Virus record (IMG/VR): IMGVR_UViG_2675903658_000001
Source of the DNA: a virus
Lineage: Duplodnaviria; Heunggongvirae; Uroviricota; Caudoviricetes
Length of the DNA stretch: 14,641 nucleotides
Strand: one strand, 5' to 3'
The notes beneath the pieces are model-generated. The model worked only from the letters and a program-made list of their open reading frames with translations, was not told the origin of the DNA and made no database searches. Both the position numbers and the translations under genes were made by a program. Below, one piece after another: positions 1 to 14,641 of the stretch; position 1 is the stretch's first letter; every line of letters begins with the position of its first letter.

Positions 1-172
1 GATGCCGGGCCTCCTCCCGGGTCACGGAAAGCGTCACCCTGTATGTTTTCAGGTCAGCATTCAGCCCTGCCGCCATACGCTGTGAGTACCCGTCACCAAA
101 ACGCACTTCACGCACCGATGGCTGCGAGTTCACCTCCATATCCGGCTTCACTTTCCAGCGAAAGGTTTTCAT
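1..172 (-). CDS. M: Minor tail protein M, second copy; only the first ~57 codons are in the window, gene continues past the left edge
   Basis: Minus-strand ATG at 172-170 overlaps the stop of the H-fragment (ATGA). Nt 1-172 are identical by eye to 5628-5799, the 5' end of the complete M gene. Translation begins MKTFRWKVKPDMEV. Confidence 0.8.
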   Translation of the reverse strand, partial: MKTFRWKVKPDMEVNSQPSVREVRFGDGYSQRMAAGLNADLKTYRVTLSVTREEARH

Positions 173-690
173 CGACCGCTCCCTGATAACAGACCGCCAT
201 CACGCAACTGCAGCCGGAGTTCATCCTGTGCCCCCTTGCGGGCCATGTCATACACCGCCTTCATCAGCTGCGACCCCGCCTGTCCGTTGATACCGTCGTT
301 CTGAATCACCACGTGATTGTTCTGATTAAAATTAATGCCTTCGGCCCGCCGCATCTGCGCCGGACTTCCGGCAGCACCCACATACCCCCCTTCCGCATAG
401 CCCCGCATCAGGCGGTACAGGTTCCCGACACCAATCCGGCTGGTTGCCTCCTTCGTGAAGACAAACTCCCCGCGGTGGACAATCCCCGCTGGCTCATATT
501 TGCCACCGGTTCCCGTAAATCCCCCGGTCGCGAAATGGAAGTTCGCCGCCGCAGCCTGAATGGCTGTACCGCCTGACGCTGATGCGCCGCCACCGGTAGC
601 CCCGCCAATGGCGCTGCCGATACTCCCGACAATCCCCACCATTGCCTGCTTAAGCAGAATTTCTGTCATCATGGATTTTTGTCGTGACAT
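169..690 (-). pseudogene. Tape measure protein H, C-terminal fragment (173-aa ORF equal to the last ~170 residues of H); likely remnant
   Basis: Six-frame ORF 169..690; the protein aligns with the C-terminus of the full H at 5796..8375 at roughly 93% identity, with no indels (1-675 colinear with 5628-6302). The ATG at 690-688 lies inside the 95-bp repeat and has no obvious Shine-Dalgarno. Confidence 0.7.
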
Positions 691-770
691 AAGAATAATT
701 ATCTATAGTTGATCTTCGTAACGCTCCCGCAGCTCCGCAACTCTGCGGGATTTTTTTATTCTTTTTACCC
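676..770 (+). repeat. Copy A of a ~95-bp element (candidate sRNA body plus terminator), direct repeat of 3350-3450
   Basis: Aligned by eye to 3350-3450 at roughly 85% identity. Both copies start at TTTTTGTCGTGA and end at GGGATTTTTTTATTCTTTTTACCC, and both begin (on the minus strand) exactly at the GGG-TAA that ends the upstream tail gene. Confidence 0.8.
725..765 (+). terminator. Intrinsic-terminator-like hairpin plus T-tract on the plus strand (copy A)
   Basis: Stem cccgcag (726-732) pairs with ctgcggg (743-749), 10-nt loop, followed by TTTTTTTATTCTTTTT (751-766). Confidence 0.55.
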
Positions 771-3101
771 AATCCGGCTCCCCTGGACAGTCCACTGACT
801 GCCGGTCCCCAGATAACGGGCAGATTTTTCCACCTGTGCCGTGTTCGTGATGCGTTTTTCTGAGAACCAGAATTCAAACTGTACCGTCGGGTCATACACC
901 GCAAGACGCGGGACCGCCGTTATCTGAAAATACCCCGGCGTCAGCTCAATGGTGGCGGGTTTTGCAGGCGCGTTAATCCGGAAGGTGGTGGTCGCAGGTT
1001 CGCCCTGCTGGCCGTAGCTGTTAATGGCCCGCACCGTCAGGGTGTATTCCCCCAGCGGCAGACCACTGAAACGGTGCTCCGTGTCTGCGGTGATGGCGGT
1101 GCTCACCAGACGGCTGTCTTCTCCGCTTCCGCTGGTCAGACGCAGACTGAAGCGCACACCCTTCACCACCCGCGGCGTGTCCCATTTCGCCTGTGCCAGA
1201 TACTGACCGTCAGCTGCACTCACCTCCACCGTCAGGTGCTGCACTGCCGGTGGGATAACGCTGTTCAGGCTGCCTGACTGCGGCTCAAAGCTGGCCCCGT
1301 TATCCACAATGGCTTCTTTTTCCGGTACGTGCTGCACCGCCGTGATGGCGAACGTGCCGTCCGTGTTTTCCCGAATGGAGACACAGCGGAACAGGCGACG
1401 ACGCAGTGACGGCAGGGAGAGTCCCCACACACCGTATGTCTCCACACCATCCGGCAGGGTGCTGACCTGTATCCGGTCAGGCGCGGGGTGTGCGGTGATG
1501 GCCACGCTCGCCGGCTTACCGCTGCCGTTAATCAGATTAACAGTGGCCGTGCCGGTCTCCGGCAGTGTCACCTCCCGGTCCAGCGTCAGGGTACGGCTGG
1601 CGGCATCGATGGACAGGACACGTCCGCCGGTCATGGTCCCGGCATAGTCGTTATCACAGATTTCAATGATGTCACCGGGTGTGTGACGCAGCCCCTGTGA
1701 CCCGAGCGTGAAATCCACCGTCTGCGTTTCCAGCAGTTCGGTCTTTATCACCCACAGCCCGGCACGGTGGGCCTGACCGCGGCTGGTACAGCCGAACGCG
1801 TCCATCTTCAGCAGGTTGCGTCCGTAGCGCAGTATGGCTTCCGGGTCTTCCACCAGTTCCGTGGAGGTCTGCCAGCCGTTCTGCGGGTCGGTGTAATTCA
1901 CCTCCACTGCCGTGTGCCGGTCCTTCAGGGCACTGAAGCTGTAGCGGAAACCCACGCCGTTATCATCCACCACCACATCGCTGTTGGTGTACGGCCACAC
2001 CACATCCGACGGACGGTCCTGAACGAACGTCAGCGTCTGGCCGTTCCATACCGGCATACAGCGCATCGCAGAGCAGAAATCACTGAGAACGTCCCACGCC
2101 TTACGCTGTTGTGCCAGGTACGCATTAAAGGTCATCCGCGGCTCGGTCCCCCCGAAACCATCCGGGACCGTCTGGTCGCAGTACTGCCCGATGGCATACA
2201 GCGCCCACTTGTCCACATCCGCCGCCCCCAGACGTTTTCCCATGCCGTAGCGCGGGTGAGTCAGCATGTCCCACAGACACCAGGCCGGGTTGTTGCTGTA
2301 TGCCGGTTTCAGGCTGCCGTCCCAGATACCACTGTACGTGCGTTTTTCCGGGTCATAGTTTGACGGCACCTGGATGATGCGACCGCGGATATGGTAGTTC
2401 ACCGTCATCTGCTGGCCGCCGAACTGCTCCGCATCCACCTGCAGCCCCACAATGGCCGTGTTCGGGTAGCACTGTTTCACATCGATGATTTCGGTGTATG
2501 ACGACCACAGCGTCTTATTCTGCAGCTGGTCCGTGGTGCTGTCCGCCGTCTCCCTGACCATCCGGATGTTAAAGGGCCGGGGAGGCAGATTATCCAGAAT
2601 CACCGAGGCCAGGAACTGCGAGGTGGTCTTGCCGTTAATGGTGACATCCTTTTCCGTCACCCAGCGGCCATTACGCTGTAACTGAATCAGAATCCGGACA
2701 GAGGAAGGATTACGGTCGCCCTTTGACGTGGTCTGCACCAGTGACTGCACCCCGAAGGTAACCCGCAGGCGGTCAATGTTCGCGGACGTAATGGTGCGCG
2801 TCACCGGTTTTGCCTTCGTCACTTCCACGCCCAGTCCGGTTTCAGCTCCGGAGGACTCAAAGCCTTCCGGTGGTGTCTGCTCCTGCTCCCCGGCACGCCA
2901 GACCGCAGTCACACCGTGTATCACGGGATTACCGTCCGTGTCCGTCAGCGGGGTTTTGTTCACCAGAATACTCTGCAGTCCCTTCACCGGACCTTCTATC
3001 GGTCCCTCACCAATCGCATCAATCACACTCATCATCTGCGTGGATTTGAGATTATCCTTCGCCTCACGAGGCGTGTGTGCCTTACCGCCACCTTTTCCCA
3101 T
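765..3101 (-). CDS. J: Tail tip / host-specificity protein J, N-terminal ~765 residues only; C-terminal receptor-binding part missing
   Basis: 778-aa ORF starting [22 protein letters not shown], matching lambda J residue for residue over much of its length as I recall it. RBS AGGGGAAGG 4 nt upstream. Similarity ends after ...RYLGT, then ~12 unrelated residues and a stop at the repeat junction. Lambda J is about 1132 aa. Confidence 0.85.
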
Positions 3102-3204
3102 ACAGCCTTCCCCTGAATAAATTAACCGCCACTTGCCATTCCGTACAGAAGTCGGATATCCTTCGCCCGAAAAGCATGAAACACATTTCTGCCATGCTAA
3201 AGAG

Positions 3205-3240
3205 AAACCCCGGTATCAGCAGATACCGGGGTTTTCTTTC
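3205..3240. terminator. Bidirectional intrinsic-terminator-like hairpin in the I-J intergenic insert
   Basis: Perfect 10-bp stem ccccggtatc (3208-3217) / gataccgggg (3222-3231) with loop agca, flanked by AAA on the 5' side and TTTTCTTTC on the 3' side, so it is followed by a U-rich tract on both strands. Confidence 0.65.
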
Positions 3241-3306
3241 ATGCCCACCGATAATCCTGTTGGTTAAAACCGGTAATGGCATAAAAATTCTGAATATCTT
3301 CACATT

Positions 3307-3334
3307 TTCACAAACTGACTGTGGCGCGTATAAT
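3307..3334 (+). promoter_or_regulatory. Near-consensus sigma70 promoter, antisense to the tail operon
   Basis: -35 TTCACA (3307-3312), 16-bp spacer, perfect -10 TATAAT (3329-3334); predicted start near 3341. It lies in the AT-rich insert, not in coding sequence. Confidence 0.55.
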
Positions 3335-3340
3335 TTCTCT

Positions 3341-3440
3341 GCGTTAATTTTTTTGTCGTGATATAAGAATAATTCCTTACACTTAATCTTCGTAACTCTC
3401 CCGCAGTTCCTGTCCGCGATCACTGCGGGATTTTTTTATT
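3341..3440 (+). ncRNA. Candidate ~100-nt small RNA, antisense to the 3' end of gene I
   Basis: Runs from the predicted start to the intrinsic terminator: 9-bp stem tcccgcagt (3399-3407) / actgcggga (3422-3430) then TTTTTTT (3431-3437). No plausible ORF. The body is conserved in the second copy at 676-770. Confidence 0.45.
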
Positions 3441-3450
3441 CTTTTTACCC
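3350..3450 (+). repeat. Copy B of the ~95-bp element, direct repeat of 676-770
   Basis: See copy A. Here the element abuts the stop codon of I (TAA at 3447-3445 on the minus strand). Confidence 0.8.
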
Positions 3451-4125
3451 CTGCCGCCCGATAACCACGACCTTTCCGCCCCCGCCTTCATCACGGGTGC
3501 TGATGTCCTGGGATATACGGCGGGAGCCAACCAGCATTTCCCCGTAAGGCACCGGCATCGGGTTCCCCTGGGCAATCATGTTATCCAGCGAGGAAAAGTA
3601 CGTGTTCTGTCTGCCGTTATCCGTTGCGCGGTAATCCGGTGTTTTTGCCTTCGGGGCCAGCATCTGGGCCACACCGCCCAGTATCATGCTGGCCCCCAGT
3701 GAAAACAGCATCGTGGTGGCAGAAAAACCGCCGGCACTCAGGGCTGTACCCCATAACACCATCGAGGCACCGGCCGTGAAGAAAGAGCCCACGATGGCTG
3801 CCGCCCCCAGCACAATCTGCAGTCCGCCCTTTCCGGCTCCGGCCAGTCGCGGCACAATGTGGATGACCGTTCCCTCACCCAGCTGTTCGTGAAGACGGGC
3901 GTACACCGCCTCCGGTGCCGTGTCATCACCGGCAATACGTATCTGGTACCAGCCTTCGTTCATCTGACGGCGAAAGCCCGGCACCTGTAACGACAGGGCA
4001 CGGATGGCTTCCGCTGCCGTGTTCACATACAGGCTGAGGCGGCGGCCAAATCGTTGCAAATCCCCGTGAAGGCAGATGCGTGCCAGTGGCGGTGACGCCA
4101 GACAGAATGCGTTCGTCGTTGCCAT
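3445..4125 (-). CDS. I: Tail tip assembly protein I (ubiquitin-like N-terminal domain family)
   Basis: 226-aa ORF starting MATTNAFCLASPPLARICLHGDLQRFGRR, lambda I-like. The start lies ~100 nt inside the 3' end of K in another frame, as in lambda. Confidence 0.9.
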   Translation of the reverse strand: MATTNAFCLASPPLARICLHGDLQRFGRRLSLYVNTAAEAIRALSLQVPGFRRQMNEGWYQIRIAGDDTAPEAVYARLHEQLGEGTVIHIVPRLAGAGKGGLQIVLGAAAIVGSFFTAGASMVLWGTALSAGGFSATTMLFSLGASMILGGVAQMLAPKAKTPDYRATDNGRQNTYFSSLDNMIAQGNPMPVPYGEMLVGSRRISQDISTRDEGGGGKVVVIGRQG

Positions 4126-4766
4126 TTTTCGGAATACCTCTCCCGTTTACTCAGTTGTTCAGGAATATGGTGCAGCAGCTCGCCGTCACCACAGTAAATG
4201 GCGGCATGATTCGGCACCGATGAACCAAAACAGCACAGCAGCACATCGCCCGGCTGCGCCGCTGACAACGGCACCTGATACAGCCCTGTGGCCTCCAGAT
4301 TATCAAGATAGAGATTCTGGCCGTTACGCCACCAGTCATCCTCACGATGAAAGTCCGGCATCTCAGTCCCCGCCAGATGGTAAGCGTCCCGGAACAGCGT
4401 GTAACAGTCCGTCACCCCGTGCTCAAAGCGCCGCCCGGTGAGATGCGGCACACAGCGGAACTTATGAATCGCCCCCCGGCAGACCAGCCACCACGGCAAA
4501 TCACTCTGCACCTGCAGCCGCCGGTCGGCCTCACTCAGCCAGGGCAGACCACCGGGATGACTGTGGACCAGCGCCACAATCTCACCCTGCATCTCTGCCC
4601 GCAGCCAGTCTTCCGGTGCAATACGAAAATACGCCTCCGGCTCTGCAGAGATATTCACACAAGGGATATACCGCTCCCCCTCCGGCGTTCTCACCACTAA
4701 GCCGCACGACTCCGCAGGCACACACCGCCGGGCATGCGCCAGAATCGCTGATTCTGTCTGTGTCAT
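4023..4766 (-). CDS. K: Tail tip assembly protein K (JAB/MPN metalloprotease-like plus NlpC/P60 peptidase-like domains)
   Basis: 247-aa ORF with a JAMM motif HSHPGGLPWLSEAD and an NlpC/P60-type Cys/His region (GVTDCYTLF ... NHAAIY). It starts 5 nt after the L stop with no strong SD, so the true start could be an internal Met. Confidence 0.88.
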   Translation of the reverse strand: MTQTESAILAHARRCVPAESCGLVVRTPEGERYIPCVNISAEPEAYFRIAPEDWLRAEMQGEIVALVHSHPGGLPWLSEADRRLQVQSDLPWWLVCRGAIHKFRCVPHLTGRRFEHGVTDCYTLFRDAYHLAGTEMPDFHREDDWWRNGQNLYLDNLEATGLYQVPLSAAQPGDVLLCCFGSSVPNHAAIYCGDGELLHHIPEQLSKRERYSEKWQRRTHSVWRHRHWHASAFTGICNDLAAASACM

Positions 4767-4771
4767 TGGAT

Positions 4772-5470
4772 TTACTGCGAAAGTTTATTAATGGAAAGGA
4801 AACCGCCAAAATTAGCCACCATGCCGCGCATCTCACACCCGCGCATGCACTTGCTGCATCTGTCCTTACGGATATCCGTGGTGGGGTTGTCGAACTCATC
4901 CGCCACCGCAGGACCGTTATACCCGCATTCATCTCCCCGGTAATCCCACATACAGGTGTTCGCCAGCATGATGCGACCGGGAAACAGCGCCCCGTCCGTC
5001 TCGGTCGGTGTAGCCAGCACAAACGAGGCCGTCATGGCTGTCAGCTGCGACATCTGCTCCACCACCCAGCGGTCACTCAGCTCCTGCTCCGGGTCCGCCT
5101 CCGGATTGCCCGCAACGAAATTCACCGCATCCAGAAAACGGGCATACACCCGGCGGCGGACCACCGTGGCCCCCACCAGACTCTGCAGGTCTTCCGCCAT
5201 CCCGGTGACCAGACCGAACAGATTGGACACCGTCAGCGACGGTCTGGCACTGCTGCCCCGGCCGTTCATCTCAAAGCCGCTGCCGTCAATCGGGTATGCC
5301 TCATACTTACGCCCCTGCCAGGTGACCGGCTCCCCTTTTTCATTCAGCTCATTACAGAAAAAATACCGCTCACCGCCCTGTACCGTCAGGTCGATTTCCC
5401 AGAGTACCACCCGCGGTGACTGCTCTGACTTAACCGACTCGTTCAGACTTTCTTCGCGAATATCCTGCAT
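4772..5470 (-). CDS. L: Minor tail protein L
   Basis: 232-aa ORF, MQDIREESLNESVKSEQSPRVVLWEIDLT..., lambda L-like with the same length. Its start overlaps the M stop (TGATG). Confidence 0.93.
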   Translation of the reverse strand: MQDIREESLNESVKSEQSPRVVLWEIDLTVQGGERYFFCNELNEKGEPVTWQGRKYEAYPIDGSGFEMNGRGSSARPSLTVSNLFGLVTGMAEDLQSLVGATVVRRRVYARFLDAVNFVAGNPEADPEQELSDRWVVEQMSQLTAMTASFVLATPTETDGALFPGRIMLANTCMWDYRGDECGYNGPAVADEFDNPTTDIRKDRCSKCMRGCEMRGMVANFGGFLSINKLSQ

Positions 5471-5799
5471 CAGTTCACCACCTGCTTAAACTCCGCGCTG
5501 AACTCAACGCGCAACATCCCGACCCGCGCAGACCACCCGGCACAGGTCACCTTTATCTGCCGGTATGCATAGGGTGGCTTCCACAAAAATGCCTTCCAGC
5601 CCCCGTGCTCTGCCAGGAACGCTTCCAGATGCCGGGCCTCCTCCCGGGTCACGGAAAGCGTCACCCTGTATGTTTTCAGGTCAGCATTCAGCCCTGCCGC
5701 CATACGCTGTGAGTACCCGTCACCAAAACGCACTTCACGCACCGATGGCTGCGAGTTCACCTCCATATCCGGCTTCACTTTCCAGCGAAAGGTTTTCAT
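5470..5799 (-). CDS. M: Minor tail protein M
   Basis: 109-aa ORF, MKTFRWKVKPDMEV..., lambda M-like with the same length. ATGA overlap with the H stop. Confidence 0.93.
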   Translation of the reverse strand: MKTFRWKVKPDMEVNSQPSVREVRFGDGYSQRMAAGLNADLKTYRVTLSVTREEARHLEAFLAEHGGWKAFLWKPPYAYRQIKVTCAGWSARVGMLRVEFSAEFKQVVN

Positions 5800-8375
5800 C
5801 CACCGCTCCCTGATAACATACCGCCATCACGCAACTGCAGCCGGAGTTCATCCTGTGCCCCCTTGCGGGCCATCTCATACACCGCTTTCATCAGCTGCGG
5901 CCCTGCCCGCCCGTTGGGGCCGTCGTTCTGAATCACCACGTGATTGTTCTGATTAAAATTAATGCCTTCCGCCCGCCGCATCTGCGCCGGACTTCCGGCA
6001 CCGCCGACATAACCACCTTCCGCATAGCCCCGCATCAGGCGGTACAGATTGCCGACACCAATCCGGCTGGTCGCCTCCTTCGTGAAGACAAACTCCCCGC
6101 GATGAACAATCCCCGCAGGTTCATATTTACCCCCCGTCCCCGTAAATCCCCCGGTCGCGAAATGGAAGTTCGCCGCCGCAGCCTGAATGGCCGTCCCCGT
6201 GGAGGCAGACGCACCACCACCGAAAGCACCGCCAATGGCGCTGCCGATACTCCCGACTATCCCCACCATCGCCTGCTTCAGAAAAATCTCTGTCAGCATG
6301 GACAGCACAGAACGGGTGAAACCACGCCAGTTCTGTTCGCTGCCGGTCAGCATCGCTGCCATATTCTGTGCAATACCGTCAAAGGTCTGCGTGGCAGCAC
6401 TTTTTACCTGCGACATACTGTCCGTGGCACTCTCTTCCCACTCACTCCAGCCGGACCTGAGGCCTGCCATCCAGTTCCCGCGAAGCAGGTCTTCAGCCGC
6501 CCAGGTCTTTTTCTGCTCTGACATGACGTTATTCAGCGCCAGCGGATTATCGCCATACTGTTCCTTCAGGCGCTGTTCTGTGGCTTCCCGTTCTGCCTGC
6601 CGGTCAGTCAGCCCCCGGCTTTTCGCATCAATGGCGGCCCGTTTTGCCCGTTGCTGCTGTGCGAATTTATCCGCCTGCTGCGCCAGCGCGTTCAGGCGCT
6701 CCTGATACGTAACCTTGTCGCCAAGTGCAGCCAGCTGGCGTTTGTACTCCAGCGTCTCATCTTTATGCGCCAGCAGGGATTTCTCCTGTGCAGACAGCTG
6801 GCGACGTTGCGCCGCCTCCTCCAGTACCGCGAACTGACTCTCCGCCTTCCACAAATCCCGGCGCTGCTGGCTGATTTTCTCATTCGCTCCGGCATGCTTC
6901 TCCAGCGTCCGGAGTTCTGCCTGAAGCGTCAGCAGGGCAGCATGAGCACTGTCTTCCTGACGATCGCCCGCAGACACCTTCACGCCGGACTGTTTCGGCT
7001 TTTTCAGCGTCGCTTCATAGTCCTTTTTCGCCGCCGCCATCAGCGTGTTGTAATCCGCCTGCAGGATTTTCCCGTCTTTCAGGGCCTTATTCAGCTCTTC
7101 CTGCCGGTCAGTATATTTCTCCAGTGGCGTCAGCAGACGCTCATACGCCTTCTGCGCCTCTCCGGTATACTTCAGCTGTGACGCCTCACGCTCAGCCCGG
7201 TCCCTTGCCGCCAGTTCACCGGCTTTTTCCATATCCGACTGCAGCGTGGCCGCTGCCAGACCCAGACGGGCATTTTCCCGGTCATCCCATGCCCCCTGAA
7301 GGTTCGCACGAAAAGAGGAGGTCTTTCCCCGGCGCTGGCTCCGGCTCTGGTACCACTGCCATTTTTTATCCGCCTCATCAAATGCCTTCTGCGCACTGGC
7401 GAGCATATCCGCTGAGGATTCCGGACGACCGATATCCAGAATGGCATCCCACATCGATTTGAATGCCTTCCCTGTTTTATCCGCCCAGGTCTCCAGTGTT
7501 CCCATGTTTTCTTTCAGGCGACGGGTCTGCTCATCAAAGCCTTTCGTGGCGATATCGTTCGCCGCCTGTAAGGCTCCGGCCTCGTCTCCGGAACGCTGCA
7601 GTTGTGCAACATACGCAATCTGCTCTGCCGTCACGTTACGAAACTGGCGCGCCATCGCCATCAGTCCCGACGTCGGGTCAGTGGTCAGCTTCCCGAAGGC
7701 TTCAGCGACTTTATCCACCTCCACACCGGATGCAGACGCAAAACGCGCGACACTCTGGTTGATGGCATCAAACTGTTCACCACCACGCACACCGGCATTC
7801 ACCAGGGCTGCCAGTGACTCTCTCGCCTGGTTAAACGTCAGCCCTGCTGCCTGCCCGGCTCTTGAGAGAGTCAGCATACGATCGGCAGTCAGTCCGGACT
7901 GATTACCGGAAAGAACCAGGGTTTTATTAAACGCTGAAAGCGTGGAATCTCCCTGGTACCAGGCGTACACCAGCGCACCTGTCGCCACCGCCAGCGAGGT
8001 GACCCCGACCATCGGCAGGGTGATCGCACCGGCAAGCCCCCTGAACATGGGGATCATCCCGCCGAAGGAGTCCTTCACCTGACCGCCCTGTTGCAGCAGG
8101 ATCAGCCAGGGATTCTGACCACCGGCAAGCTGCGTGGCGATATCCGTAAACTGTGCGGGCAGGGTTCGCATGGCCGCTTTATACTGCCCGACGGAAATCC
8201 CTGCTTTTTGTGCAGCCAGCGCCTGGCGGCTCAGGCCCTGTTCAACAGCACTGGCGGTTTTTCTGGCGTCGGTATCCAGACCTGAAAAATGACGCCTTAC
8301 CCGGCTCATCTGCTCATCGAAACGGACAGCATCCAGACTAAGGTCAATAACAAGATCACCAACCGGCTGGGACAT
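5796..8375 (-). CDS. H: Tail tape measure protein H
   Basis: 859-aa ORF, MSQPVGDLVIDLSLDAVRFDEQMSRVRRHFSG..., lambda H-like (about 853 aa in lambda). RBS GGGAGG 8 nt upstream. Gly-rich hydrophobic C-terminal segment. Confidence 0.95.
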   Translation of the reverse strand: MSQPVGDLVIDLSLDAVRFDEQMSRVRRHFSGLDTDARKTASAVEQGLSRQALAAQKAGISVGQYKAAMRTLPAQFTDIATQLAGGQNPWLILLQQGGQVKDSFGGMIPMFRGLAGAITLPMVGVTSLAVATGALVYAWYQGDSTLSAFNKTLVLSGNQSGLTADRMLTLSRAGQAAGLTFNQARESLAALVNAGVRGGEQFDAINQSVARFASASGVEVDKVAEAFGKLTTDPTSGLMAMARQFRNVTAEQIAYVAQLQRSGDEAGALQAANDIATKGFDEQTRRLKENMGTLETWADKTGKAFKSMWDAILDIGRPESSADMLASAQKAFDEADKKWQWYQSRSQRRGKTSSFRANLQGAWDDRENARLGLAAATLQSDMEKAGELAARDRAEREASQLKYTGEAQKAYERLLTPLEKYTDRQEELNKALKDGKILQADYNTLMAAAKKDYEATLKKPKQSGVKVSAGDRQEDSAHAALLTLQAELRTLEKHAGANEKISQQRRDLWKAESQFAVLEEAAQRRQLSAQEKSLLAHKDETLEYKRQLAALGDKVTYQERLNALAQQADKFAQQQRAKRAAIDAKSRGLTDRQAEREATEQRLKEQYGDNPLALNNVMSEQKKTWAAEDLLRGNWMAGLRSGWSEWEESATDSMSQVKSAATQTFDGIAQNMAAMLTGSEQNWRGFTRSVLSMLTEIFLKQAMVGIVGSIGSAIGGAFGGGASASTGTAIQAAAANFHFATGGFTGTGGKYEPAGIVHRGEFVFTKEATSRIGVGNLYRLMRGYAEGGYVGGAGSPAQMRRAEGINFNQNNHVVIQNDGPNGRAGPQLMKAVYEMARKGAQDELRLQLRDGGMLSGSGG

Positions 8376-9227
8376 ATCTCACACCTCCCGGAATCCCCGC
8401 TGAAGCCATCATTAATGCGGCATCATCCACCATGACATCCGCCACATCCGCAGACGATAAAATATCGCGCCCTCCGTCCCCACCGAACCGGACGCCTCCG
8501 GCAAGTCCTGCCGCTTTCTGCATCAGCATTTTGTCCTCATCCGGCCTCTCCACCTGCTCTTCCTCATGCCGGGGGACAAGCAGACTGAAATCAGAGGGAT
8601 GCATATCCGGATCGCAAAAAAACAGGCTGAGTACAGCGTACGTCAGCCCGGAAAAATGCATATCCAGCTGGGTATCCTGAAAATAATGCGTGCGGTAAAA
8701 ACGGTGCCAGTCGGCATATTCGGTGGATGTCATCCCGGCAAGCATGGCGCGCCAGTCGGGTCTCCCCATCTCACGCGCCAGTCTGAGGGCAAAGTTCAGC
8801 TCGCCGTCGAAGACTTTCCCGCAGAAAAATCATCATCAGTCAGCGTGTTATTTTTCGCCACTTCAGTAATATCAGTATCCGGACGAACAGCTTCGATCAT
8901 CCCGGACAGGCACAACACCACGTCTTCCGCCCGGGCAATGGCATCGGCAGGCCAGGTGGTGAGCACTTCCTGCTCTATCTTCATCACGGCCTCATTCATT
9001 GACGGTGACTGCGTTTTCTGTGGATGGTTATGCCACAGGGACATCGCCACCAGAAACGCGCCGGTTCTGACGAGATCTTCCACACTTACCTGCAGGTTGC
9101 CGCTGGATTCTGCCTGTTCTGCACGCCGTTTCAGGAGGGCAAGATGCTCGATACGCTGCAGCGCAGACAATTCGGAAAGCGTGACAGACACACCGTTATA
9201 TTCAAATTGTTCTGTTTTCAGAAACAT
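8356..9227 (-). CDS. T: Tail assembly chaperone G-T fusion made by programmed -1 ribosomal frameshift (G frame to about 8814, then the T frame to the stop at 8356)
   Basis: The T-frame ORF (8356..8769, MGRPDWRAMLAGMTSTEYADWHRFY...) has no independent start context. It is open upstream into G, and the slippery heptamer sits at the junction. The post-shift reading VFDGELNFALRLAREMGRPDW matches the lambda gpGT junction. Confidence 0.85.
8796..9227 (-). CDS. G: Tail assembly chaperone G
   Basis: 143-aa ORF, MFLKTEQFEYNGVSVTLSELSALQRIEHLALLKRRAEQAES..., lambda G-like. RBS GGAGG 7 nt upstream. Confidence 0.93.
   Translation of the reverse strand: MFLKTEQFEYNGVSVTLSELSALQRIEHLALLKRRAEQAESSGNLQVSVEDLVRTGAFLVAMSLWHNHPQKTQSPSMNEAVMKIEQEVLTTWPADAIARAEDVVLCLSGMIEAVRPDTDITEVAKNNTLTDDDFSAGKSSTAS
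8814..8820 (-). other. -1 frameshift slippery heptamer G GGA AAG
   Basis: Plus strand ctttccc at 8814-8820 is the reverse complement of GGGAAAG, in the G frame as GCG GGA AAG, 7 codons before the G stop. This is the lambda G-T slippery sequence. Confidence 0.85.
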
Positions 9228-9240
9228 GTATTACCTCCGT

Positions 9241-9993
9241 TTACCCTGCAGCGCCCGCTTCAGTAACGGTGACTTCAGCCACTGCGGCGAACTGACCATT
9301 TCCGCTCACCACAGGGATCTGCACCTTACCTGTCGCCACGCCGTTTACCGTAATTGTCATATCTTTCACACTAATGGTGGCTTTCGACGGATCGGCGGAA
9401 ACCGCTCTGAACGTCTTGTCGGTTGCACTTTCCGGCTCAAAAGAAACCGTCAGGGTGGTTGTTTTCCCTTTTGCCACCGTACCGGATGTCGGCGTCACCT
9501 TAATCGCACTGACCGGCGTAATTTTGCTGCGTTCTTCCGCTACAGAAGGTTTACCCACGTTAGTGACTTTCACCGTGCGGGTGATCACTTCTTTCGCCGT
9601 CACGGCCTTACCGATACTGCTGACCCAGCCACGAAACACATCCACCGTGCCATTCGGAAAACGGATTTTATAGGCCCGGACATCGCCGCTTTCAAACCAG
9701 CCTATAAGCCCTTTCTGACCTTCCTCTCCCGGTTTCCAGGCCAGCGTAAAACTGGTATCACCTGCAGATTTCTGTCCCTGCCCGGTCGCGGTCCAGTCCG
9801 CGTCTTCATCATCCAGGTAGTTATCATCGTAGGGTTCTGCCGTCATCTCGCCCGGCGTCAGATCCTTCACCTTAGCCAGTCGCTGCCAGTCATCGTCTGA
9901 CAACGGGTTTGCATAAGCATCACCCTTGCCGTTGTAAACCCACAGAGTGGTACCGGCACCTTTTACCGGCTCAAGGGGATTTGGTGTTGCCAT
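9241..9993 (-). CDS. V: Major tail tube protein V with a C-terminal Ig-like domain
   Basis: 250-aa ORF, lambda V-like. RBS GAGGA. The C-terminal ~90 aa are Thr/Val-rich beta-strand sequence typical of the Ig-like decoration domain. Confidence 0.93.
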
Positions 9994-10000
9994 ATCGTCC

Positions 10001-10396
10001 TCACATCTCGTATGTAATGGAATAAGTCAGATCTGCAGAACTCCATAACGCCATATCGTCATCACGACGATACTCATAGCCCTGCGTAACCATCGTGGTA
10101 ATCAGTCCTGCCAGTGCCGGGATCGCGGTCATCGCCGGGTAAATCCGGCTTTCCATCCACTGATCAAGCTCTGAATCCGGTACCTGTGCCGGTAAAAACA
10201 CCTCAATATGCAGCGTGGCCCGCCAGGTATCTGCATCCAGCTCTTCACCGGTATACTCTGCATCCGTCAGATAAACCGCGATCGCAGGAAAATCCTCTTC
10301 GTCAAAAACAACGGGGCGACCATCAAACAGCGTCGCCCCGTGTTCATGCTGCTCGAGTGCATCCAGCACTGCGGCACGAATGTCAGTGTGTTTCAT
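10001..10396 (-). CDS. U: Tail terminator protein U
   Basis: 131-aa [36 protein letters not shown]..., lambda U-like with the same length. ATGA overlap with the Z stop. Confidence 0.94.
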
Positions 10397-10926
10397 CGTT
10401 TTATTGCAATCCTCAGTTGTTGTTTCAGCGCGGATGCCAGTTCTTTGGGCAGGCGTTCACGCCGGATACGGTCAACATTCTCATCAAACGCCTGTTTCAG
10501 TGGGGCCGCCATCGGGATTTTCACCACATCAATGGGGTAACGGTTTTTCCCGGCCACACGCTGCATGACATGCCAGCGACCGTTTTTTAATCGCTGAATG
10601 AATGCCCGCTGATACCGATGCTGACCGGCTTTAAGTATGCTGTTCGGGCGACGGCCCAGCATCCTGATCCCCAGCTTAATCACTGGGAGATCACCGCGGT
10701 TAACGATAATTTTTGCGTTCGGATTTCTGACCGTGGCCCGTTTCAGTCTGGACCGTTCCTTAACCAGTTTCCGGCGTACCTTTGTCTCCCGGGCAACCTG
10801 TGATGAAGACTGATTAATCGCCGTTGTGGCCACGCGGTTAATCGTCATTGCTGAAGCCGCCGGAATGGCGTTTTTACGAACCCGGCTCAGATTGTCAATC
10901 GCCTGATCAAGCCCTTTTATCGCCAT
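10393..10926 (-). CDS. Z: Tail completion protein Z
   Basis: 177-aa ORF, MAIKGLDQAIDNLSRVRKNAIPAASAMTINRVA..., lambda Z-like; the C-terminus ...[22 protein letters not shown] is conserved. Confidence 0.93.
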   Translation of the reverse strand: MAIKGLDQAIDNLSRVRKNAIPAASAMTINRVATTAINQSSSQVARETKVRRKLVKERSRLKRATVRNPNAKIIVNRGDLPVIKLGIRMLGRRPNSILKAGQHRYQRAFIQRLKNGRWHVMQRVAGKNRYPIDVVKIPMAAPLKQAFDENVDRIRRERLPKELASALKQQLRIAIKR

Positions 10927-10941
10927 AATTTCACCCTGCGT

Positions 10942-11295
10942 TTATCGTCGCCGGTTAACTGCGGGTGGTTGCCCACGGTTGAGCCAGAGATAACAGCTGC
11001 CCCCGTCATCCGGAGAAACACGATCCACCCAGAACATCTCGCCGTTAATGGTCAGCGTGTCACCACGCCGCACGGCACGCACCGTATCCGTCCGCACAAA
11101 TAATGACGGGCTGCTTCCTTCAATACGGACCCCGCCACCGGCAAAACCCAGCGACTCCGGATCGTCAAAAACCCCCTGAACTTCGCTTCCACGTTGTGCT
11201 CCGGAGGTGAACTGCGCACAGAGCCCCATCACTTCAACGATCGTGCTGTCCACCCCGGCGAGGGCAGCATCAAAGGCATTCTGAAAATCACGCAT
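10942..11295 (-). CDS. FII: Head-tail joining protein FII
   Basis: 117-aa ORF, MRDFQNAFDAALAGVD...VDRVSPDDGGSCYLWLNRGQPPAVNRRR, lambda FII-like with the same length. Confidence 0.94.
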   Translation of the reverse strand: MRDFQNAFDAALAGVDSTIVEVMGLCAQFTSGAQRGSEVQGVFDDPESLGFAGGGVRIEGSSPSLFVRTDTVRAVRRGDTLTINGEMFWVDRVSPDDGGSCYLWLNRGQPPAVNRRR

Positions 11296-11362
11296 GTTCA
11301 GCCGTTCCGTGCTGTATCATGGCTGTTGCCAGTGGTGATGGCACCATAACACGCATGCCCCG

Positions 11363-11671
11363 TTACGTCAGTTCAACGGGACGGCCTGTCTCCGGGCAAT
11401 ACCCCATTACTTGCAGGCACTTCCGTCCCCGGACGGCTTTAACATCATCCGGAGCATCCGTGTTGTTCAACTGCTCACCATCGTCTGTGTGATTTTGATC
11501 AGCCCCGCTCTCATCAGAGTGCATAATGCCCTCCGGGGAAACAGCAAGCTCCTCTTCCCACTCAGACACACGTTGAGCAATATCCGCAGCACTCCCCGAC
11601 ATATCCGCCTCGCGCCCCAGCAGGCCAGCCAGTTGACGAAGACGATTCAGATTTTCTTCTTTTGTTGCCAT
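11363..11671 (-). CDS. FI: DNA-packaging / head assembly protein FI
   Basis: Start reassigned to the second Met of track ORF 11363..11704 (MATKEENLNRLRQ...), which has a strong SD AGGAGG 5 nt upstream. The upstream ATG lies inside the terminator hairpin loop. Acidic middle region as in lambda FI. Confidence 0.85.
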   Translation of the reverse strand: MATKEENLNRLRQLAGLLGREADMSGSAADIAQRVSEWEEELAVSPEGIMHSDESGADQNHTDDGEQLNNTDAPDDVKAVRGRKCLQVMGYCPETGRPVELT

Positions 11672-11683
11672 CTCAGCCTCCTG

Positions 11684-11716
11684 TGAAAAAAGACACGGGG
11701 GCATTTCGCCCCCGCT
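11684..11716 (-). terminator. Intrinsic-terminator-like hairpin between E and FI (candidate attenuator)
   Basis: On the minus-strand RNA: 7-bp GC stem (11696-11702 / 11708-11714) with a 5-nt loop, then UGUCUUUUUUCA (11695-11684), then the FI SD. Confidence 0.5.
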
Positions 11717-11722
11717 CCCGGA

Positions 11723-12751
11723 TTATTTCACCTGTACCACCACAAACTCATCCGGATCCGGCAGCACCATCAGCGGTGCGGACTGCGTCATGGTGAATTC
11801 ACGGGCCGGATCGCCCACAGTCAGCCAGTGTTTCGGATAACGGGAAGAGGCCACCACACCTTCGGACAACGCCTGCGCATCCTGAATGGCACCATAGCAA
11901 CGAATGCCCTCTGCTGCCGTATTCCCCAGGACCAGTGTGCCCTCCGGCAGATAACGTTTTTCGGTACCGTCCTCTGCCACATAAGACGTTTTCGCCACCA
12001 CAATGGCCAGATCGCCGTAATACCCCTTGAAGGACACCACTGCGCCCAGGTCTTTCACTGCCGTTTCGAGTTGTGAATTTGAGCCGCGACGGGTATCCAG
12101 TTTTTCGCGGAACAGCTTAAAGCCATTCAGCAGACGCCAGACCGTACCGTCCATAATGGCGATATTCACAAGGCCGCTGGCCTGATCGCAGTAGAGGTCA
12201 ATATCATGCGTCGGATCAAACGTATCACGGTCCTGCTCAGACCATTTTTTACCGTCAGCCTGCTCAATGTTATTTCCTTCAGAGCGCCCGAAATCCACCT
12301 CGACAGTATCAAACTGATCCCCTTCCATGGTGTATTTGCCATACAGCACGGCATTCACCGCCTGCATTTCTTCCACCTGGACAATGGCGTGCTCTTCCTG
12401 TTTGAGGTTATCGGTAATGATACGCAGACGACGGTAGGCTGGGTCGTTCAGCTGAGCCGGATCTTCACCAGGAAGGCGCTCAACCGCCTGCTGGTAATTA
12501 AATTCGTGTTTGGGCTTGACGTAGCCCGGACGTAACACGCGGGTTTCACCACCGCGATGGCGAAGCACTTTTCCTTCAACGATCGGGGAGACATAGGCCG
12601 CCACCGGCGTTTTTCCGGTAATTTTGTCCAGCATCACCTCTTCGGTGTGGAAATTCACCGTGCGGCGGAAAAACAGCTCCAGAAACAGCGCACGGAATTT
12701 AACTTTTTGTTCGGTATAACCGAGTAACTGGCGGGTCGTAAACAATCCCAT
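11723..12751 (-). CDS. E: Major capsid protein E
   Basis: 342-aa ORF, MGLFTTRQLLGYTEQKVKFRALFLELFFRR...SAPLMVLPDPDEFVVVQVK, lambda E-like (341 aa in lambda). RBS AGGA 8 nt upstream. Confidence 0.96.
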   Translation of the reverse strand: MGLFTTRQLLGYTEQKVKFRALFLELFFRRTVNFHTEEVMLDKITGKTPVAAYVSPIVEGKVLRHRGGETRVLRPGYVKPKHEFNYQQAVERLPGEDPAQLNDPAYRRLRIITDNLKQEEHAIVQVEEMQAVNAVLYGKYTMEGDQFDTVEVDFGRSEGNNIEQADGKKWSEQDRDTFDPTHDIDLYCDQASGLVNIAIMDGTVWRLLNGFKLFREKLDTRRGSNSQLETAVKDLGAVVSFKGYYGDLAIVVAKTSYVAEDGTEKRYLPEGTLVLGNTAAEGIRCYGAIQDAQALSEGVVASSRYPKHWLTVGDPAREFTMTQSAPLMVLPDPDEFVVVQVK

Positions 12752-12779
12752 AAATCAGTTCCTTTCATTCAGAAATCAG

Positions 12780-12801
12780 TCAGGCCACCATGGTGGCCTG
12801 A
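12780..12801 (-). other. Perfect 22-bp palindrome in the D-E intergenic region (RNA hairpin or protein site)
   Basis: tcaggccaccatggtggcctga equals its own reverse complement; it sits about 28 nt upstream of the E start and 8 nt after the D stop. Confidence 0.5.
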
Positions 12802-12808
12802 TAACGTG

Positions 12809-13156
12809 TTACGGCAGCGCCGCGTGACTCAGGGCTGTACCGGCAAAGGCATTTGCCTTTTTGTGTTCATCCACACTGTCAGGCCAGCGGATTGCCTCCG
12901 TCGCAAAGGTCCCCGACTTGTAATAGGTCAGCACCGTCTCTGTGCCTTCAAGCGGCAGTACCAGTATGCCAACCGCACTACCGGCTTTCTGTCCATCCCA
13001 GACAACCAGTTTCCCGCTGGCTTCATCCAGCATCAGGGGCGTCAGTGCCGGTGTTGCCTGAGAAATCCCGCTGCTGCCTGTGGCGGTATGAGCCGGATCA
13101 TTACCGGCAAAAATACGTACTTCTGCACGTTGTTCAGTGATGGTTTTCGTTACCAT
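12809..13156 (-). CDS. D: Head decoration protein D
   Basis: 115-aa ORF containing NDPAHTATGSSG...TPLMLDEASGKLVVWDG...YKSGTF, lambda D-like. RBS GAGG 8 nt upstream. Confidence 0.93.
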   Translation of the reverse strand: MVTKTITEQRAEVRIFAGNDPAHTATGSSGISQATPALTPLMLDEASGKLVVWDGQKAGSAVGILVLPLEGTETVLTYYKSGTFATEAIRWPDSVDEHKKANAFAGTALSHAALP

Positions 13157-13192
13157 ATTGTTAAAACCTCGTATTGATGTTCAGCACTGACT

Positions 13193-13795
13193 TCATGGCA
13201 TGGCCATGAGCATTTTCACGTCCGCATCACCGTCTTCTGACGTCTGTGACACGCCCCCCTGGACCGCTGCCGGTGAATGGTTCGCCATGAAATGTTCAAA
13301 CAGGGCGGTTGTGGATGCAGAGACCGGTTCTGCTTTATCCGGCGATGAGGACAGAATGTCGCGGGCAGCCTCCACCGTCATTCCGGGAAACGCCGCCAGT
13401 TTTTCAGCCTGCGCCTCAGCCCCTTTTGCCTCATCCAGAGCCATGATCTGATCACGGAGTGAGGGTCCGGCATCCGCCAGTGGTGCAGCCGCCAGGATCG
13501 GGCGGGCTTTTTCCACCGTCATCTCCGGCATCGCCGCCAGCGTTGCCGCCAGTTGTTCACGACCTTTAGCCTCTTCACACGCCATAATGCGATCGGCTTC
13601 ACTCTGCGTGGATGCCACCGGCTGCTGTGGTGCTGCCGCGGTCAGAATCGCCCGGGCCTGTTCAACGCTCATGCCCTGTTGTCCTGCCAGCATCGTGGCA
13701 AGGTGTTCACGTCCTTTCGCTTCCTGACACGTCAGGATCCCCATCACTCGCTGGTTCTCCTGCGCGGCAGCTTCCGTTGCAGTTAATTGCGGCAT
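13193..13795 (-). CDS. Nu3: Nu3-like scaffolding protein, made by in-frame internal initiation within C
   Basis: Internal ATG at 13795-13793 (MPQLTATEAAAQ...) is preceded by a strong SD AGGAGG 4-5 nt upstream, embedded in the C frame. It corresponds in position to lambda Nu3, which is nested in the 3' third of C. It contains three tandem ~48-aa repeats. Confidence 0.65.
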   Translation of the reverse strand: MPQLTATEAAAQENQRVMGILTCQEAKGREHLATMLAGQQGMSVEQARAILTAAAPQQPVASTQSEADRIMACEEAKGREQLAATLAAMPEMTVEKARPILAAAPLADAGPSLRDQIMALDEAKGAEAQAEKLAAFPGMTVEAARDILSSSPDKAEPVSASTTALFEHFMANHSPAAVQGGVSQTSEDGDADVKMLMAMP

Positions 13796-14641
13796 AGTGC
13801 CTCCTGTATCATGTGTGTTCAGCGCCGCAGCCATCACGCTGATGGCATCCGACGCATTGATTAATTCATCCGCCAGCCCGGCCTCAATGCCGGACTGACC
13901 TTCAAAAACGGCGGCCTCTGTTCCCGTGACTGCATCAACAGACAGACCGGTATACATCGCCACTTTTTCGGCAAACATCCGGCGCGCCGCATCAATCCGC
14001 TGCTGCATGTCCTGGCGAACCTCTTCCGGCAACGCTTCAAACTGATTGCCATCCACCTTGTGCGCCCCTGAGTAAATCAGCGTGATATCCACACCGGCCT
14101 GCGCCAGATGACCGGCATAGCTGACATGGCTCATCATCACGCCAATGGAGCCGATACGGGATGTCTGGGTAACCAGCCGTCGGGAGCAGGCCGACGCCAG
14201 CAGCATGGCTGCAGAACAGGCCGTGTCATTGCACAGTGCCCAGACCGGCTTCTGCTGACGGAGTCGGTAAATCATGTCAGCACAGTCAAACGCACCGGCG
14301 GCCTGCCCGCCCGGACTGTCAATGTCCAGCAGTACACCCCGCACCTGGCTATCCGCCATTGCCTGCTGAAGACAGGCGACAATGCCGTCATAGCCTGTCA
14401 TTCCGGAAAATGGCCGCATACCCCCCAGCCGGTGCACCAGCGTGCCTGTCACCGGCAGTACAGCAATACCGTTCACCACCCGGTAAACACGGGCCGGTCG
14501 TTTACCTCCGGCCATGTACTCGTCCGTTTCAGCCAGCATTCCGGGAGCATCAAGCTGTACCTGCTGTTGTGGTACCGAAAGACTTGCTGCCCCCATCTCG
14601 CGCCCGAGCGCGCAAAAGAAAACCCGCGCATAGGCGGGCTC
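13193..14641 (-). CDS. C: Capsid assembly protease C (S49/ClpP-like), 5' end beyond the right edge of the window
   Basis: The frame is open to the window edge; the upstream codons read EPAYARVFFCAL, matching lambda C near residue 25. The body has a lambda C-like core (VNGIAVLPVTG...VWALCNDTACSAAMLLASA...). Confidence 0.92.
   Translation of the reverse strand, partial: EPAYARVFFCALGREMGAASLSVPQQQVQLDAPGMLAETDEYMAGGKRPARVYRVVNGIAVLPVTGTLVHRLGGMRPFSGMTGYDGIVACLQQAMADSQVRGVLLDIDSPGGQAAGAFDCADMIYRLRQQKPVWALCNDTACSAAMLLASACSRRLVTQTSRIGSIGVMMSHVSYAGHLAQAGVDITLIYSGAHKVDGNQFEALPEEVRQDMQQRIDAARRMFAEKVAMYTGLSVDAVTGTEAAVFEGQSGIEAGLADELINASDAISVMAAALNTHDTGGTMPQLTATEAAAQENQRVMGILTCQEAKGREHLATMLAGQQGMSVEQARAILTAAAPQQPVASTQSEADRIMACEEAKGREQLAATLAAMPEMTVEKARPILAAAPLADAGPSLRDQIMALDEAKGAEAQAEKLAAFPGMTVEAARDILSSSPDKAEPVSASTTALFEHFMANHSPAAVQGGVSQTSEDGDADVKMLMAMP
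13313..13762 (-). repeat. Three tandem, diverged ~48-codon repeats within the C/Nu3 C-terminal region
   Basis: The protein repeats share the motif EAKGRE.LA..LA..P.MTVE.AR.IL.AAP (ILTCQEAKGREHLATMLAGQQGMSVEQARAILTAAAP / IMACEEAKGREQLAATLAAMPEMTVEKARPILAAAP / IMALDEAKGAEAQAEKLAAFPGMTVEAARDILSSSP). Lambda has one copy as I recall. Confidence 0.7.

What the first reader, a model, noticed from the sequence alone, without database searches (positions are those of the whole stretch)
1..690. Duplicated H 3' end plus M 5' end, colinear with 5628-6302: tandem or chimeric prophage junction
Positions 1-675 align without indels to 5628-6302 at a constant offset of 5627. The M portion (1-172) is identical by eye, while the H portion is only about 90-93% identical with many synonymous and some amino-acid changes. 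This mosaic pattern suggests the left copy comes from a different but related tail operon joined at the 95-bp element, rather than a recent tandem duplication. A near-identical repeat of this kind is also a classic cause of assembly collapse in genomes with several lambdoid prophages.
Basis: seen in the sequence. Interest (0 to 1): 0.55.

Follow-up and report, generated by a model that had tools for sequence, protein, structure and literature searches.

The report
Scaffolding artefact joining two sibling prophages
The repeated tail-gene segment is really in the sequence, but it most likely arose when a draft-genome assembler wrote pieces of two nearly identical lambda-like prophages one after the other, so it is an assembly artefact rather than a biological duplication.

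Summary
Positions 1-675 match 5628-6302 without gaps at offset 5627. Positions 1-173 are identical, and all 49 mismatches lie in the H part.

The window is one contig of a public draft scaffold, KQ087876.1 (GCA_001030435.1), and it lies between two runs of N. In that record the base at window 771 is a single N. That is exactly where J meets the 95-nt piece.

Eight kb further along the same scaffold, another single N sits between two perfect 1230-bp copies. This shows that a single N in this assembly can mark an unmerged contig overlap.

The left 770 nt are 100% identical to a second, common prophage type (as in strain AR_0086). After a 365-N gap the scaffold continues with that phage's L, K, I and a complete J.

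Neither junction occurs in 5,426 complete E. coli genomes, the phage records, GTDB species representatives, IMG/VR or JGI metagenomes. Both junctions are blunt.

The "95-bp element" is an allele of pasB, a known Hfq-dependent prophage sRNA gene whose normal place is the I-J spacer.

Verdict: a chimeric junction made by the assembler. The underlying biology is ordinary. One point stays unexplained: the blunt pasB|H' join at 675|676.

The parts
1..172 (-). M' : first 57 codons of minor tail gene M. This is the second-prophage (P2) copy, cut off by the 365-N scaffold gap.
   Evidence: Identical to 5628-5799. 100% identical to AR_0086. Called as a 57-aa PF05939 fragment that ends at the N run.
169..675 (-). 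H' : last 168 codons plus stop of the tape-measure gene H, P2 allele.
   Evidence: 100% identical to AR_0086 and 16 other complete genomes. 90.2% identical to the window's own H 3' end, with mostly synonymous differences. An independent P2-type contig, L014, starts 21 nt upstream of this breakpoint.
676..770 (+). Displaced 95-nt piece: the P2 allele of the pasB sRNA gene (body, terminator hairpin and T7) without its promoter. It is joined bluntly to H' at 675|676.
   Evidence: 100% identical to the native I-J spacer copy of AR_0086, KE51 and about 36 genomes, and to the second copy in the same scaffold. No microhomology at either end. A terminator is found, but no promoter.
771..771 (.). Scaffold join. 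This base is a single N in KQ087876.1.
   Evidence: It is the only difference between the window and the record over 14,641 bases. A second single N in the same scaffold separates two perfect 1230-bp copies.
765..3101 (-). J 5' part: 775 native codons of the tail-tip gene J (772-3101). The apparent ORF then runs through the N codon and a glycine codon to a TAA supplied by the pasB piece.
   Evidence: Window 771-3361 is 100% identical to AR_0086 J, which runs on to 1230 aa. The last 1950 nt before the N are identical to J' of the second copy. An independent contig, L011, ends 71 nt away.
3307..3437 (+). Native pasB gene of this prophage (P1 allele). Promoter TTCACA-16-TATAAT at 3307-3334, RNA from about 3341 to 3437, terminator hairpin followed by T7. 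It is convergent with gene I.
   Evidence: Promoter scan scored 11 of 12, and a terminator was found. It aligns with E2348/69 pasB. The published Northern probe matches the minus strand.
3445..5799 (-). Tail-tip assembly genes: I (3445-4026), K (4023-4766), L (4772-5470) and M (5470-5799).
   Evidence: Gene calls and Pfam families on the same DNA in L009. Colinear with annotated prophages.
5628..6302 (-). Right-hand, in-place copy of the repeat: the M 5' end and H 3' end of prophage P1.
   Evidence: This stretch is identical to the KE51 prophage.
5796..8375 (-). H, tape-measure gene, 859 aa. It is a natural mosaic: the 3' part is KE51-like and the 5' part is AR_0086-like.
   Evidence: Exactly the same protein is encoded in 6 other independent assemblies with a normal H-M-L-K-I-J order.

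Best explanation
The duplication was made when a short-read draft genome was scaffolded. It is not a structure of the bacterial chromosome.

**Setting (inferred from relatives).** The strain carries at least two closely related lambda-like prophages.
- P1 is the body of the window.
- P2 is the AR_0086 type.
- They are identical over long stretches: the 5' half of H, part of M, and the first 2.6 kb of J.
- They differ in short blocks: the H 3' end, K-L, and the pasB sRNA gene.

**What the assembler did (shown).** It could not keep the two phages apart. It wrote the P1 path as far as J codon 775. It then placed a single N, which in this scaffold marks an unmerged overlap. After the N it wrote the P2-specific pieces: a 95-nt pasB node, then the H 3' end and M, a 365-N gap, then L, K, I, pasB and a complete J.

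**What that produces.** The unit from H residue 691 to J residue 775 appears twice in series. J looks truncated. An artificial ORF appears to start inside pasB.

**Status of each step.**
- Shown: the N at the join, the second unmerged overlap, the allele origin of every piece, and the absence of the junctions elsewhere.
- Inferred: that two separate prophages exist in this strain.
- Inferred, and weaker: the cause of the blunt pasB|H' join inside the left contig. It may come from a single-k-mer graph node or from a mate-pair circularisation chimera. The two backward jumps are 2676 and 2952 bp, which fits a roughly 3-kb jumping library. The assembler used for this record could not be verified.
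For: 1. The reverse complement of the window equals KQ087876.1 (GCA_001030435.1) between a 100-N run and a 365-N run. A further 238-N run lies 2 kb beyond. So the region is full of assembly breaks.
2. The only difference over 14,641 bases is that window 771, the J|pasB junction, is a single N in the record.
3. In the same scaffold, 8 kb downstream, L013 16881-18110 equals 18112-19341 at 100% over 1230 bp, separated by a single N at 18111. That is an unmerged contig overlap.
4. The last 1950 nt before the first N are identical to the J' of the second copy. This is the same kind of overlap.
5. Window 1-675 and 676-770 are each 100% identical to the correct, colinear places of one ordinary prophage in AR_0086. 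The sequence after the gap is 99.74% identical to that phage.
6. Neither junction exists in 5,426 complete E. coli genomes, 50,697 phage records, GTDB representatives, IMG/VR or JGI metagenomes.
7. Six other assemblies encode the identical H protein and have the normal H-M-L-K-I-J(1230 aa) order.
8. Both breakpoints lie next to contig ends in independent assemblies. L011 ends 71 nt from the J breakpoint, and L014 starts 21 nt from the H' breakpoint. Repeat boundaries in an assembly graph would behave this way.
9. Both joins are blunt, with no microhomology.
10. E. coli genomes that match this tail region have a median of 3 matching places, so co-resident sibling prophages are the norm. Strain E5 has two.
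Against: - The pasB|H' join at 675|676 lies inside continuous called sequence, with no N. A simple end-to-end placement of contigs does not explain it. I could not show which assembler step produced it.
- The assembler, the k-mer size and the library types of GCA_001030435.1 could not be looked up. The k-mer and mate-pair arguments rest on my own knowledge and on numerical coincidence only.
- I could not reach the chromosomal flanks of the scaffold. I therefore could not find P2's head genes or P1's J 3' end elsewhere in the assembly. The existence of two separate prophages in this particular strain is inferred, not shown.
- No reads were available.
Confidence: 0.9

Rival explanations
1. The structure is a real complex rearrangement. 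One version is a tandem duplication of the 5.5-kb unit from H residue 691 to J residue 775. The other is a deletion between two tandemly integrated prophages. In either case it would have been made by serial template switching during replication, which copied 95 nt of pasB as filler at the junction. Later recombination with a sibling prophage would then have made the two copies differ.
For: All three segments are in direct orientation. Each jump goes backwards along the same phage map, by 2676 and 2952 bp, as template-switch models predict. The 675|676 join is continuous called sequence. The scaffold order after the gap is colinear with such a structure.
Against: The other junction is an N in the record. 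The same scaffold has a proven unmerged overlap at another single N. There is no microhomology at either join. The junctions occur in no other genome or metagenome searched. The two copies carry different alleles in three separate blocks, which would require additional recombination events. The breakpoints coincide with contig ends in unrelated assemblies.
Confidence: 0.07
2. The 95-nt element is itself mobile or recombinogenic. It could be a miniature transposable element, a site for a site-specific recombinase, or a reverse-transcribed PasB RNA. On this reading it inserted between, or joined, J and H'.
For: The piece has sharp ends and nearly coincides with the mapped PasB RNA. It starts about 4 nt before the annotated 5' end and runs 13 nt past the terminator T-run. 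It is far more variable than its flanks: 19 differences in 61 nt against none in the adjacent 2591 nt.
Against: Relatives of the piece matched in 1,401 genomes. In the 80 hits listed (best 40 and a spread of 40), every full-length match overlaps the end of the tail assembly gene I, and the shorter ones fall in unannotated DNA. No other gene context appeared. There are no terminal inverted repeats or target duplications. The ends do not match the RNA ends exactly. The sharp ends are equally expected for an allele-specific node of an assembly graph, because the variable block is the sRNA body.
Confidence: 0.02
3. The join is a chimeric DNA molecule made during library preparation and then assembled faithfully. 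Examples are a mate-pair circularisation junction or an amplification chimera. This is a specific sub-mechanism of the artefact, not a different verdict.
For: Both joins are blunt and lack homology, in tandem-like orientation. They connect points 2.7-2.95 kb apart on the same phage map. A circularised fragment of about 3 kb would give this result.
Against: The library types of this assembly are unknown. A single chimeric read rarely survives error correction. Two such events 95 nt apart would be needed.
Confidence: 0.3

Closest known systems
Unmerged contig overlaps in short-read scaffolds, written as a single N with the same sequence on both sides (false tandem duplication in draft assemblies)
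   Same: There is a single N exactly at the join. The sequence before the N is repeated after it. N-gaps are clustered in a multi-copy prophage region. A textbook case (1230 bp, 100% identical) lies 8 kb away in the same scaffold.
   Different: Here the two sides are paralogues, not the same locus, so the copies are 92-100% alike rather than identical. An extra 95-nt allele-specific piece sits bluntly at the head of the second contig.
Lambda-type tail module (V-G-T-H-M-L-K-I-J) of E. coli lambdoid prophages such as those of CFT073, ABU 83972, AR_0086 and KE51
   Same: The gene order, sizes and Pfam families match, and nucleotide identity to many prophages is 97-99%.
   Different: Nothing differs once the artefact is removed. 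The P1 phage is an ordinary mosaic of known alleles.
PasB, an Hfq-dependent prophage-encoded sRNA of EPEC E2348/69 (Pearl Mizrahi et al. 2021, PMC8550237; Zhu, Shabalina and Storz 2026, bioRxiv 10.64898/2026.05.13.724894)
   Same: The locus is the same: the I-J spacer, convergent with I. The promoter and the terminator with its T7 run are conserved. The published probe sequence is present. The preprint reports PasB as frequent in extraintestinal isolates; prophages closely matching this window are in CFT073- and O25:H4-type strains.
   Different: The central, presumed seed region differs strongly between the E2348/69 allele and the two alleles in this window. The displaced copy at 676-770 lacks the promoter.

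Membership tests
Scaffolding artefact (contigs with a zero or negative gap written in series) | The join is marked by a gap character, not by called sequence | tested here: met
   Window 771 is N in KQ087876.1, and this is the only difference in 14,641 bases.
Scaffolding artefact (contigs with a zero or negative gap written in series) | The sequence before the join reappears after it | tested here: met
   L013 4371-9901 reappears at 9998-15640. The last 1950 nt match at 100%.
Scaffolding artefact (contigs with a zero or negative gap written in series) | The same assembly shows the behaviour elsewhere | tested here: met
   A perfect 1230-bp repeat lies on either side of a single N at L013 18111. 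Three N-runs lie within 18 kb.
Scaffolding artefact (contigs with a zero or negative gap written in series) | No reads span the junctions, and depth is consistent with separate copies | not testable with these tools
   Raw reads are not available here.
Biological tandem duplication or tandem-prophage fusion | The junction is continuous sequence and can be found independently | tested here: not met
   There is an N at 771. Both junctions are absent from every collection searched. The junction ORFs are not on record elsewhere.
Biological tandem duplication or tandem-prophage fusion | Homology or microhomology at the breakpoints | tested here: not met
   Both joins are blunt, with no shared bases.
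PasB sRNA gene | Sequence homology to the validated E2348/69 pasB, including the Northern probe site | tested here: met
   Alignment A1. The first 20 of the 23 nt of probe AATCCCGCAGTGATCGCGGAGCT are present on the window's minus strand in the native copy.
PasB sRNA gene | Located in the spacer between tail genes I and J, convergent with I | tested here: met
   for the native copy at 3341-3437. The displaced copy at 676-770 does not meet this feature.
PasB sRNA gene | Own promoter and an intrinsic terminator with a U-run | tested here: met
   TTCACA-16-TATAAT (11 of 12) and a hairpin followed by T7. These are consensus matches only. The displaced copy has the terminator but no promoter.
PasB sRNA gene | Expressed and bound by Hfq | not testable with these tools
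   Shown only for E2348/69 in PMC8550237.
Miniature mobile element | Copies in several unrelated genomic contexts, with terminal inverted repeats and target-site duplications | tested here: not met
   Every listed hit lies at the I-J spacer: full-length matches overlap the end of gene I and shorter ones are intergenic. No inverted repeats were reported.

The most novel reading that the evidence does not exclude
The junction is real. In this strain a replication template-switching event, or insertion of a reverse-transcribed PasB RNA, duplicated 5.5 kb of the tail operon. It placed a copy of the pasB sRNA gene at the breakpoint. This truncated the host-range protein J and created a new ORF for the C-terminal 170 residues of the tape-measure protein.
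Probability: 0.05. Interest if true: 0.45.

Novelty: not a real feature. Interest (0 to 1): 0.07.

Why it matters
It matters mainly as a caution. A truncated J gene, an orphan H fragment and a "tandem prophage" in this record should not be annotated or counted as biology. Single N characters in draft scaffolds can hide false duplications, and a window cut from such a record may no longer show the N.

The finding adds nothing new about phage biology. The tail operon is ordinary, and the 95-nt element is the already described PasB sRNA gene.

One minor point may be useful to people working on prophage sRNAs. pasB is a hypervariable island between otherwise identical sibling prophages.

Tried and rejected
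- **Rfam scan of the whole window at E up to 1**. It found nothing relevant, and pasB matched no Rfam family there.
- **Exact look-ups of the two junction ORFs**. They failed because the recorded J product contains an X at the N codon and the recorded H' gene starts at a later ATG. The 167-aa version and the H protein did work.
- **Phage PhiR5_1, annotated with two 'H' genes**. This is only a frameshift split and is unrelated.
- **Whether window 771 is a mosaic boundary between the KE51 and AR_0086 J genes**. It is not, so those two phages alone do not explain that contig end.
- **The 95-nt piece as a simple two-allele de Bruijn bubble branch.** The shared flanks are 12 and 25-28 nt, which are unequal, and H' starts in the middle of a divergent block. 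A third sibling prophage or another assembler step would be needed.
- **A DGR-type repeat.** Rejected by eye: the differences between the two pasB copies are not adenine-specific (reading; not computed).
- **Literature searches.** A search for the accession numbers found nothing. A search for the ALLPATHS-LG k-mer size gave no usable citation.
- **Chromosomal flanks of the scaffold.** I could not reach them, because look-ups are limited to 10 kb around proteins encoded in the window.

Full report
**1.

An ungapped comparison at offset 5627 shows that window 1-675 matches 5628-6302 with 49 mismatches. None lies in 1-173 and all lie in 174-675. Identity drops to the random level from 676 onwards (also found by the repeat finder).

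All genes are on the minus strand. Read in the direction of transcription, the window contains:
- the head genes (protease C fragment, D, E, FI, FII);
- the tail genes Z, U, V, G and T;
- H (5796-8375), M (5470-5799), L, K and I (3445-4026);
- a 340-bp low-GC spacer;
- the first 775 codons of J (772-3101);
- a 95-nt piece (676-770);
- the last 168 codons of a second H (169-675);
- the first 57 codons of a second M (1-172).

Of the 49 mismatches, 36 are at third-codon positions, and 11 of 168 residues differ. So the two H ends are diverged functional alleles. Neither is a decayed copy of the other.

**2. Where the pieces come from**

Window 1-675 is 100% identical to the H/M boundary of a lambdoid prophage present in 17 complete E. 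coli genomes, for example AR_0086. The 95-nt piece is 100% identical to the sequence just downstream of gene I in that same prophage. Window 771-3361 is also 100% identical to that prophage's J gene and I-J spacer.

Over 771-14641 the window is colinear with that prophage at 98.2% identity. The differences cluster in three places: 3362-3422, 4164-5245 and 5801-6543. In the last two blocks the window is identical to another prophage, from strain KE51.

So the body of the window is one mosaic phage, which I call P1. The left 770 nt carry the alleles of a sibling phage, P2, for two of the blocks in which P1 and P2 differ.

Both joins are blunt, with no shared bases. Neither join is present in any collection searched:
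- 5,426 complete E. coli genomes;
- 50,697 phage records;
- GTDB species representatives;
- IMG/VR;
- JGI metagenomes.

**3. The source record settles most of the question**

Looking up the exact H protein returned seven contigs. Six have the ordinary order H-M-L-K-I-J, with J complete at 1230 aa where the contig reaches that far. The seventh, scaffold KQ087876.1 of draft assembly GCA_001030435.1, has the window's structure.

The window is the reverse complement of that scaffold between a 100-N run in the protease gene and a 365-N run in M'. A third run of 238 N lies 2 kb further on.

The window and the record differ at one position only. Window 771, exactly the J|95-nt junction, is a single N in the record.

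After the 365-N gap the scaffold continues with L, K, I, the same 95-nt sequence in its native place, and a complete J. All of this is 99.74% identical to the AR_0086 type.

**4. An internal control**

Eight kb downstream in the same scaffold, 1230 bp (the J 3' end, lom and the stf 5' end) are written twice at 100% identity. A single N lies between the copies. That is an unmerged contig overlap.

At the first N the same pattern appears. The last 1950 nt before it are identical to the J' of the second copy, and there are only three mismatches over about 2.5 kb.

Two independent short-read assemblies also break their contigs next to the two breakpoints. L011 ends 71 nt from the J breakpoint. L014, a P2-type contig, starts 21 nt from the H' breakpoint. 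This is what repeat boundaries in an assembly graph would produce. Random illegitimate recombination would not be expected to produce it.

Genomes that match this tail region have a median of three matching places. Strain E5 shows two near-identical sibling prophages at different loci.

**5. What the 95-nt element is**

On the plus strand the native copy has three features of a small-RNA gene that runs convergent with I:
- a near-consensus promoter, TTCACA-16-TATAAT, at 3307-3334;
- a transcribed region of about 95 nt;
- a hairpin followed by T7.

The element is pasB, an 83-nt Hfq-dependent sRNA validated by Northern blot in EPEC E2348/69. Table S6 of PMC8550237 gives its coordinates and a probe, and most of the probe sequence is present in the window. 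The E2348/69 locus lies between the same two genes. It aligns with the window's promoter and terminator but differs in the centre of the RNA.

A 2026 preprint describes PasB as embedded in a phage structural operon and as frequent in extraintestinal isolates.

Relatives of the 95-nt piece occur in 1,401 of the 5,426 genomes. In the hits I listed, they always lie in this spacer. So it is not a dispersed mobile element.

Rfam did not report it.

The displaced copy at 676-770 has the terminator but lacks the promoter.

**6. Most likely explanation**

The assembler could not separate P1 from P2. It wrote the P1 path into the shared J, then placed an N where the gap estimate was zero or negative, and then wrote the P2-specific path. 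That produced a false tandem repeat of the unit from H residue 691 to J residue 775.

I put this at about 0.9.

**7. What remains unexplained**

The blunt pasB|H' join at 675|676 lies inside called sequence. I see two possible causes:
- a stray single-k-mer graph node, since 95 nt is one k-mer or k-1 in several assemblers (my own knowledge, not verified for this record);
- a mate-pair circularisation chimera, since the two backward jumps of 2676 and 2952 bp fit an insert of about 3 kb.

Both are inference only.

**8. Rivals**

A real template-switch duplication remains possible, at about 0.07. It is disfavoured by five points:
- the N at the join;
- the second unmerged overlap in the same scaffold;
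- the blunt ends;
- the uniqueness of the junctions;
- the need for extra recombination events to explain three blocks of allele differences.

A mobile or recombinogenic role for the element is unlikely, at about 0.02.

**9. Verdict**

The junction itself is most likely not biological. Once the artefact is removed, what remains is a standard lambdoid tail operon with a known sRNA gene. Interest is low.

Noticed in passing
window 3307-3437 (+); also 676-770: The pasB sRNA gene is a hypervariable island. P1 and the AR_0086-type phage differ at 19 positions, plus indels, within 61 nt of the RNA body. The adjacent 2591 nt of spacer and J are identical, and the promoter and terminator are conserved. 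This suggests allele exchange or diversifying selection on the seed region.
   Followed up: partly
L013 16881-19341 (scaffold KQ087876.1, downstream of the window): A second false tandem repeat occurs in the same scaffold. A 1230-bp stretch (J 3' end, lom, stf 5' end) is written twice at 100% identity around a single N, so lom appears as two genes.
   Followed up: yes
window 771: The window shows a called base here (A on the plus strand, which is the native J base).
   Followed up: partly
window about 3205-3250: A strong GC-rich hairpin (AAAACCCCGGTATC-TGCT-GATACCGGGGTTT) with T-runs on both strands lies in the I-J spacer, between pasB and the J start. It looks like a bidirectional intrinsic terminator inside the late operon. 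The simple terminator scan did not list it.
   Followed up: no
window 8814-8820 (minus strand), near the 3' end of gene G (8796-9227): The slippery heptamer GGGAAAG lies 24 nt before the G stop codon, where lambda's programmed -1 frameshift makes the G-T fusion. The T ORF follows at 8356-8769.
   Followed up: no
window 5796-8375: The tape-measure gene is a natural mosaic. Positions 4001-7000 are identical to the KE51 prophage, and 7001-9500 are identical to the AR_0086 prophage. Exactly this protein is encoded in six other assemblies, so the mosaic is real and not an assembly product.
   Followed up: yes
L002 1648-3252 (AR_0086, next to the P2-type prophage): A gene annotated as a TIR-domain anti-phage reverse transcriptase sits at the prophage end near prfC. 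It is a defence gene carried at the prophage's edge.
   Followed up: no
L004 33150-34436 (E5 prophage related to P1): A subtilase-family AB5 toxin B subunit and a scabin-related ADP-ribosyltransferase are annotated between the Q antiterminator and the lysis genes. This is the position that Shiga-toxin genes occupy in Stx phages.
   Followed up: no
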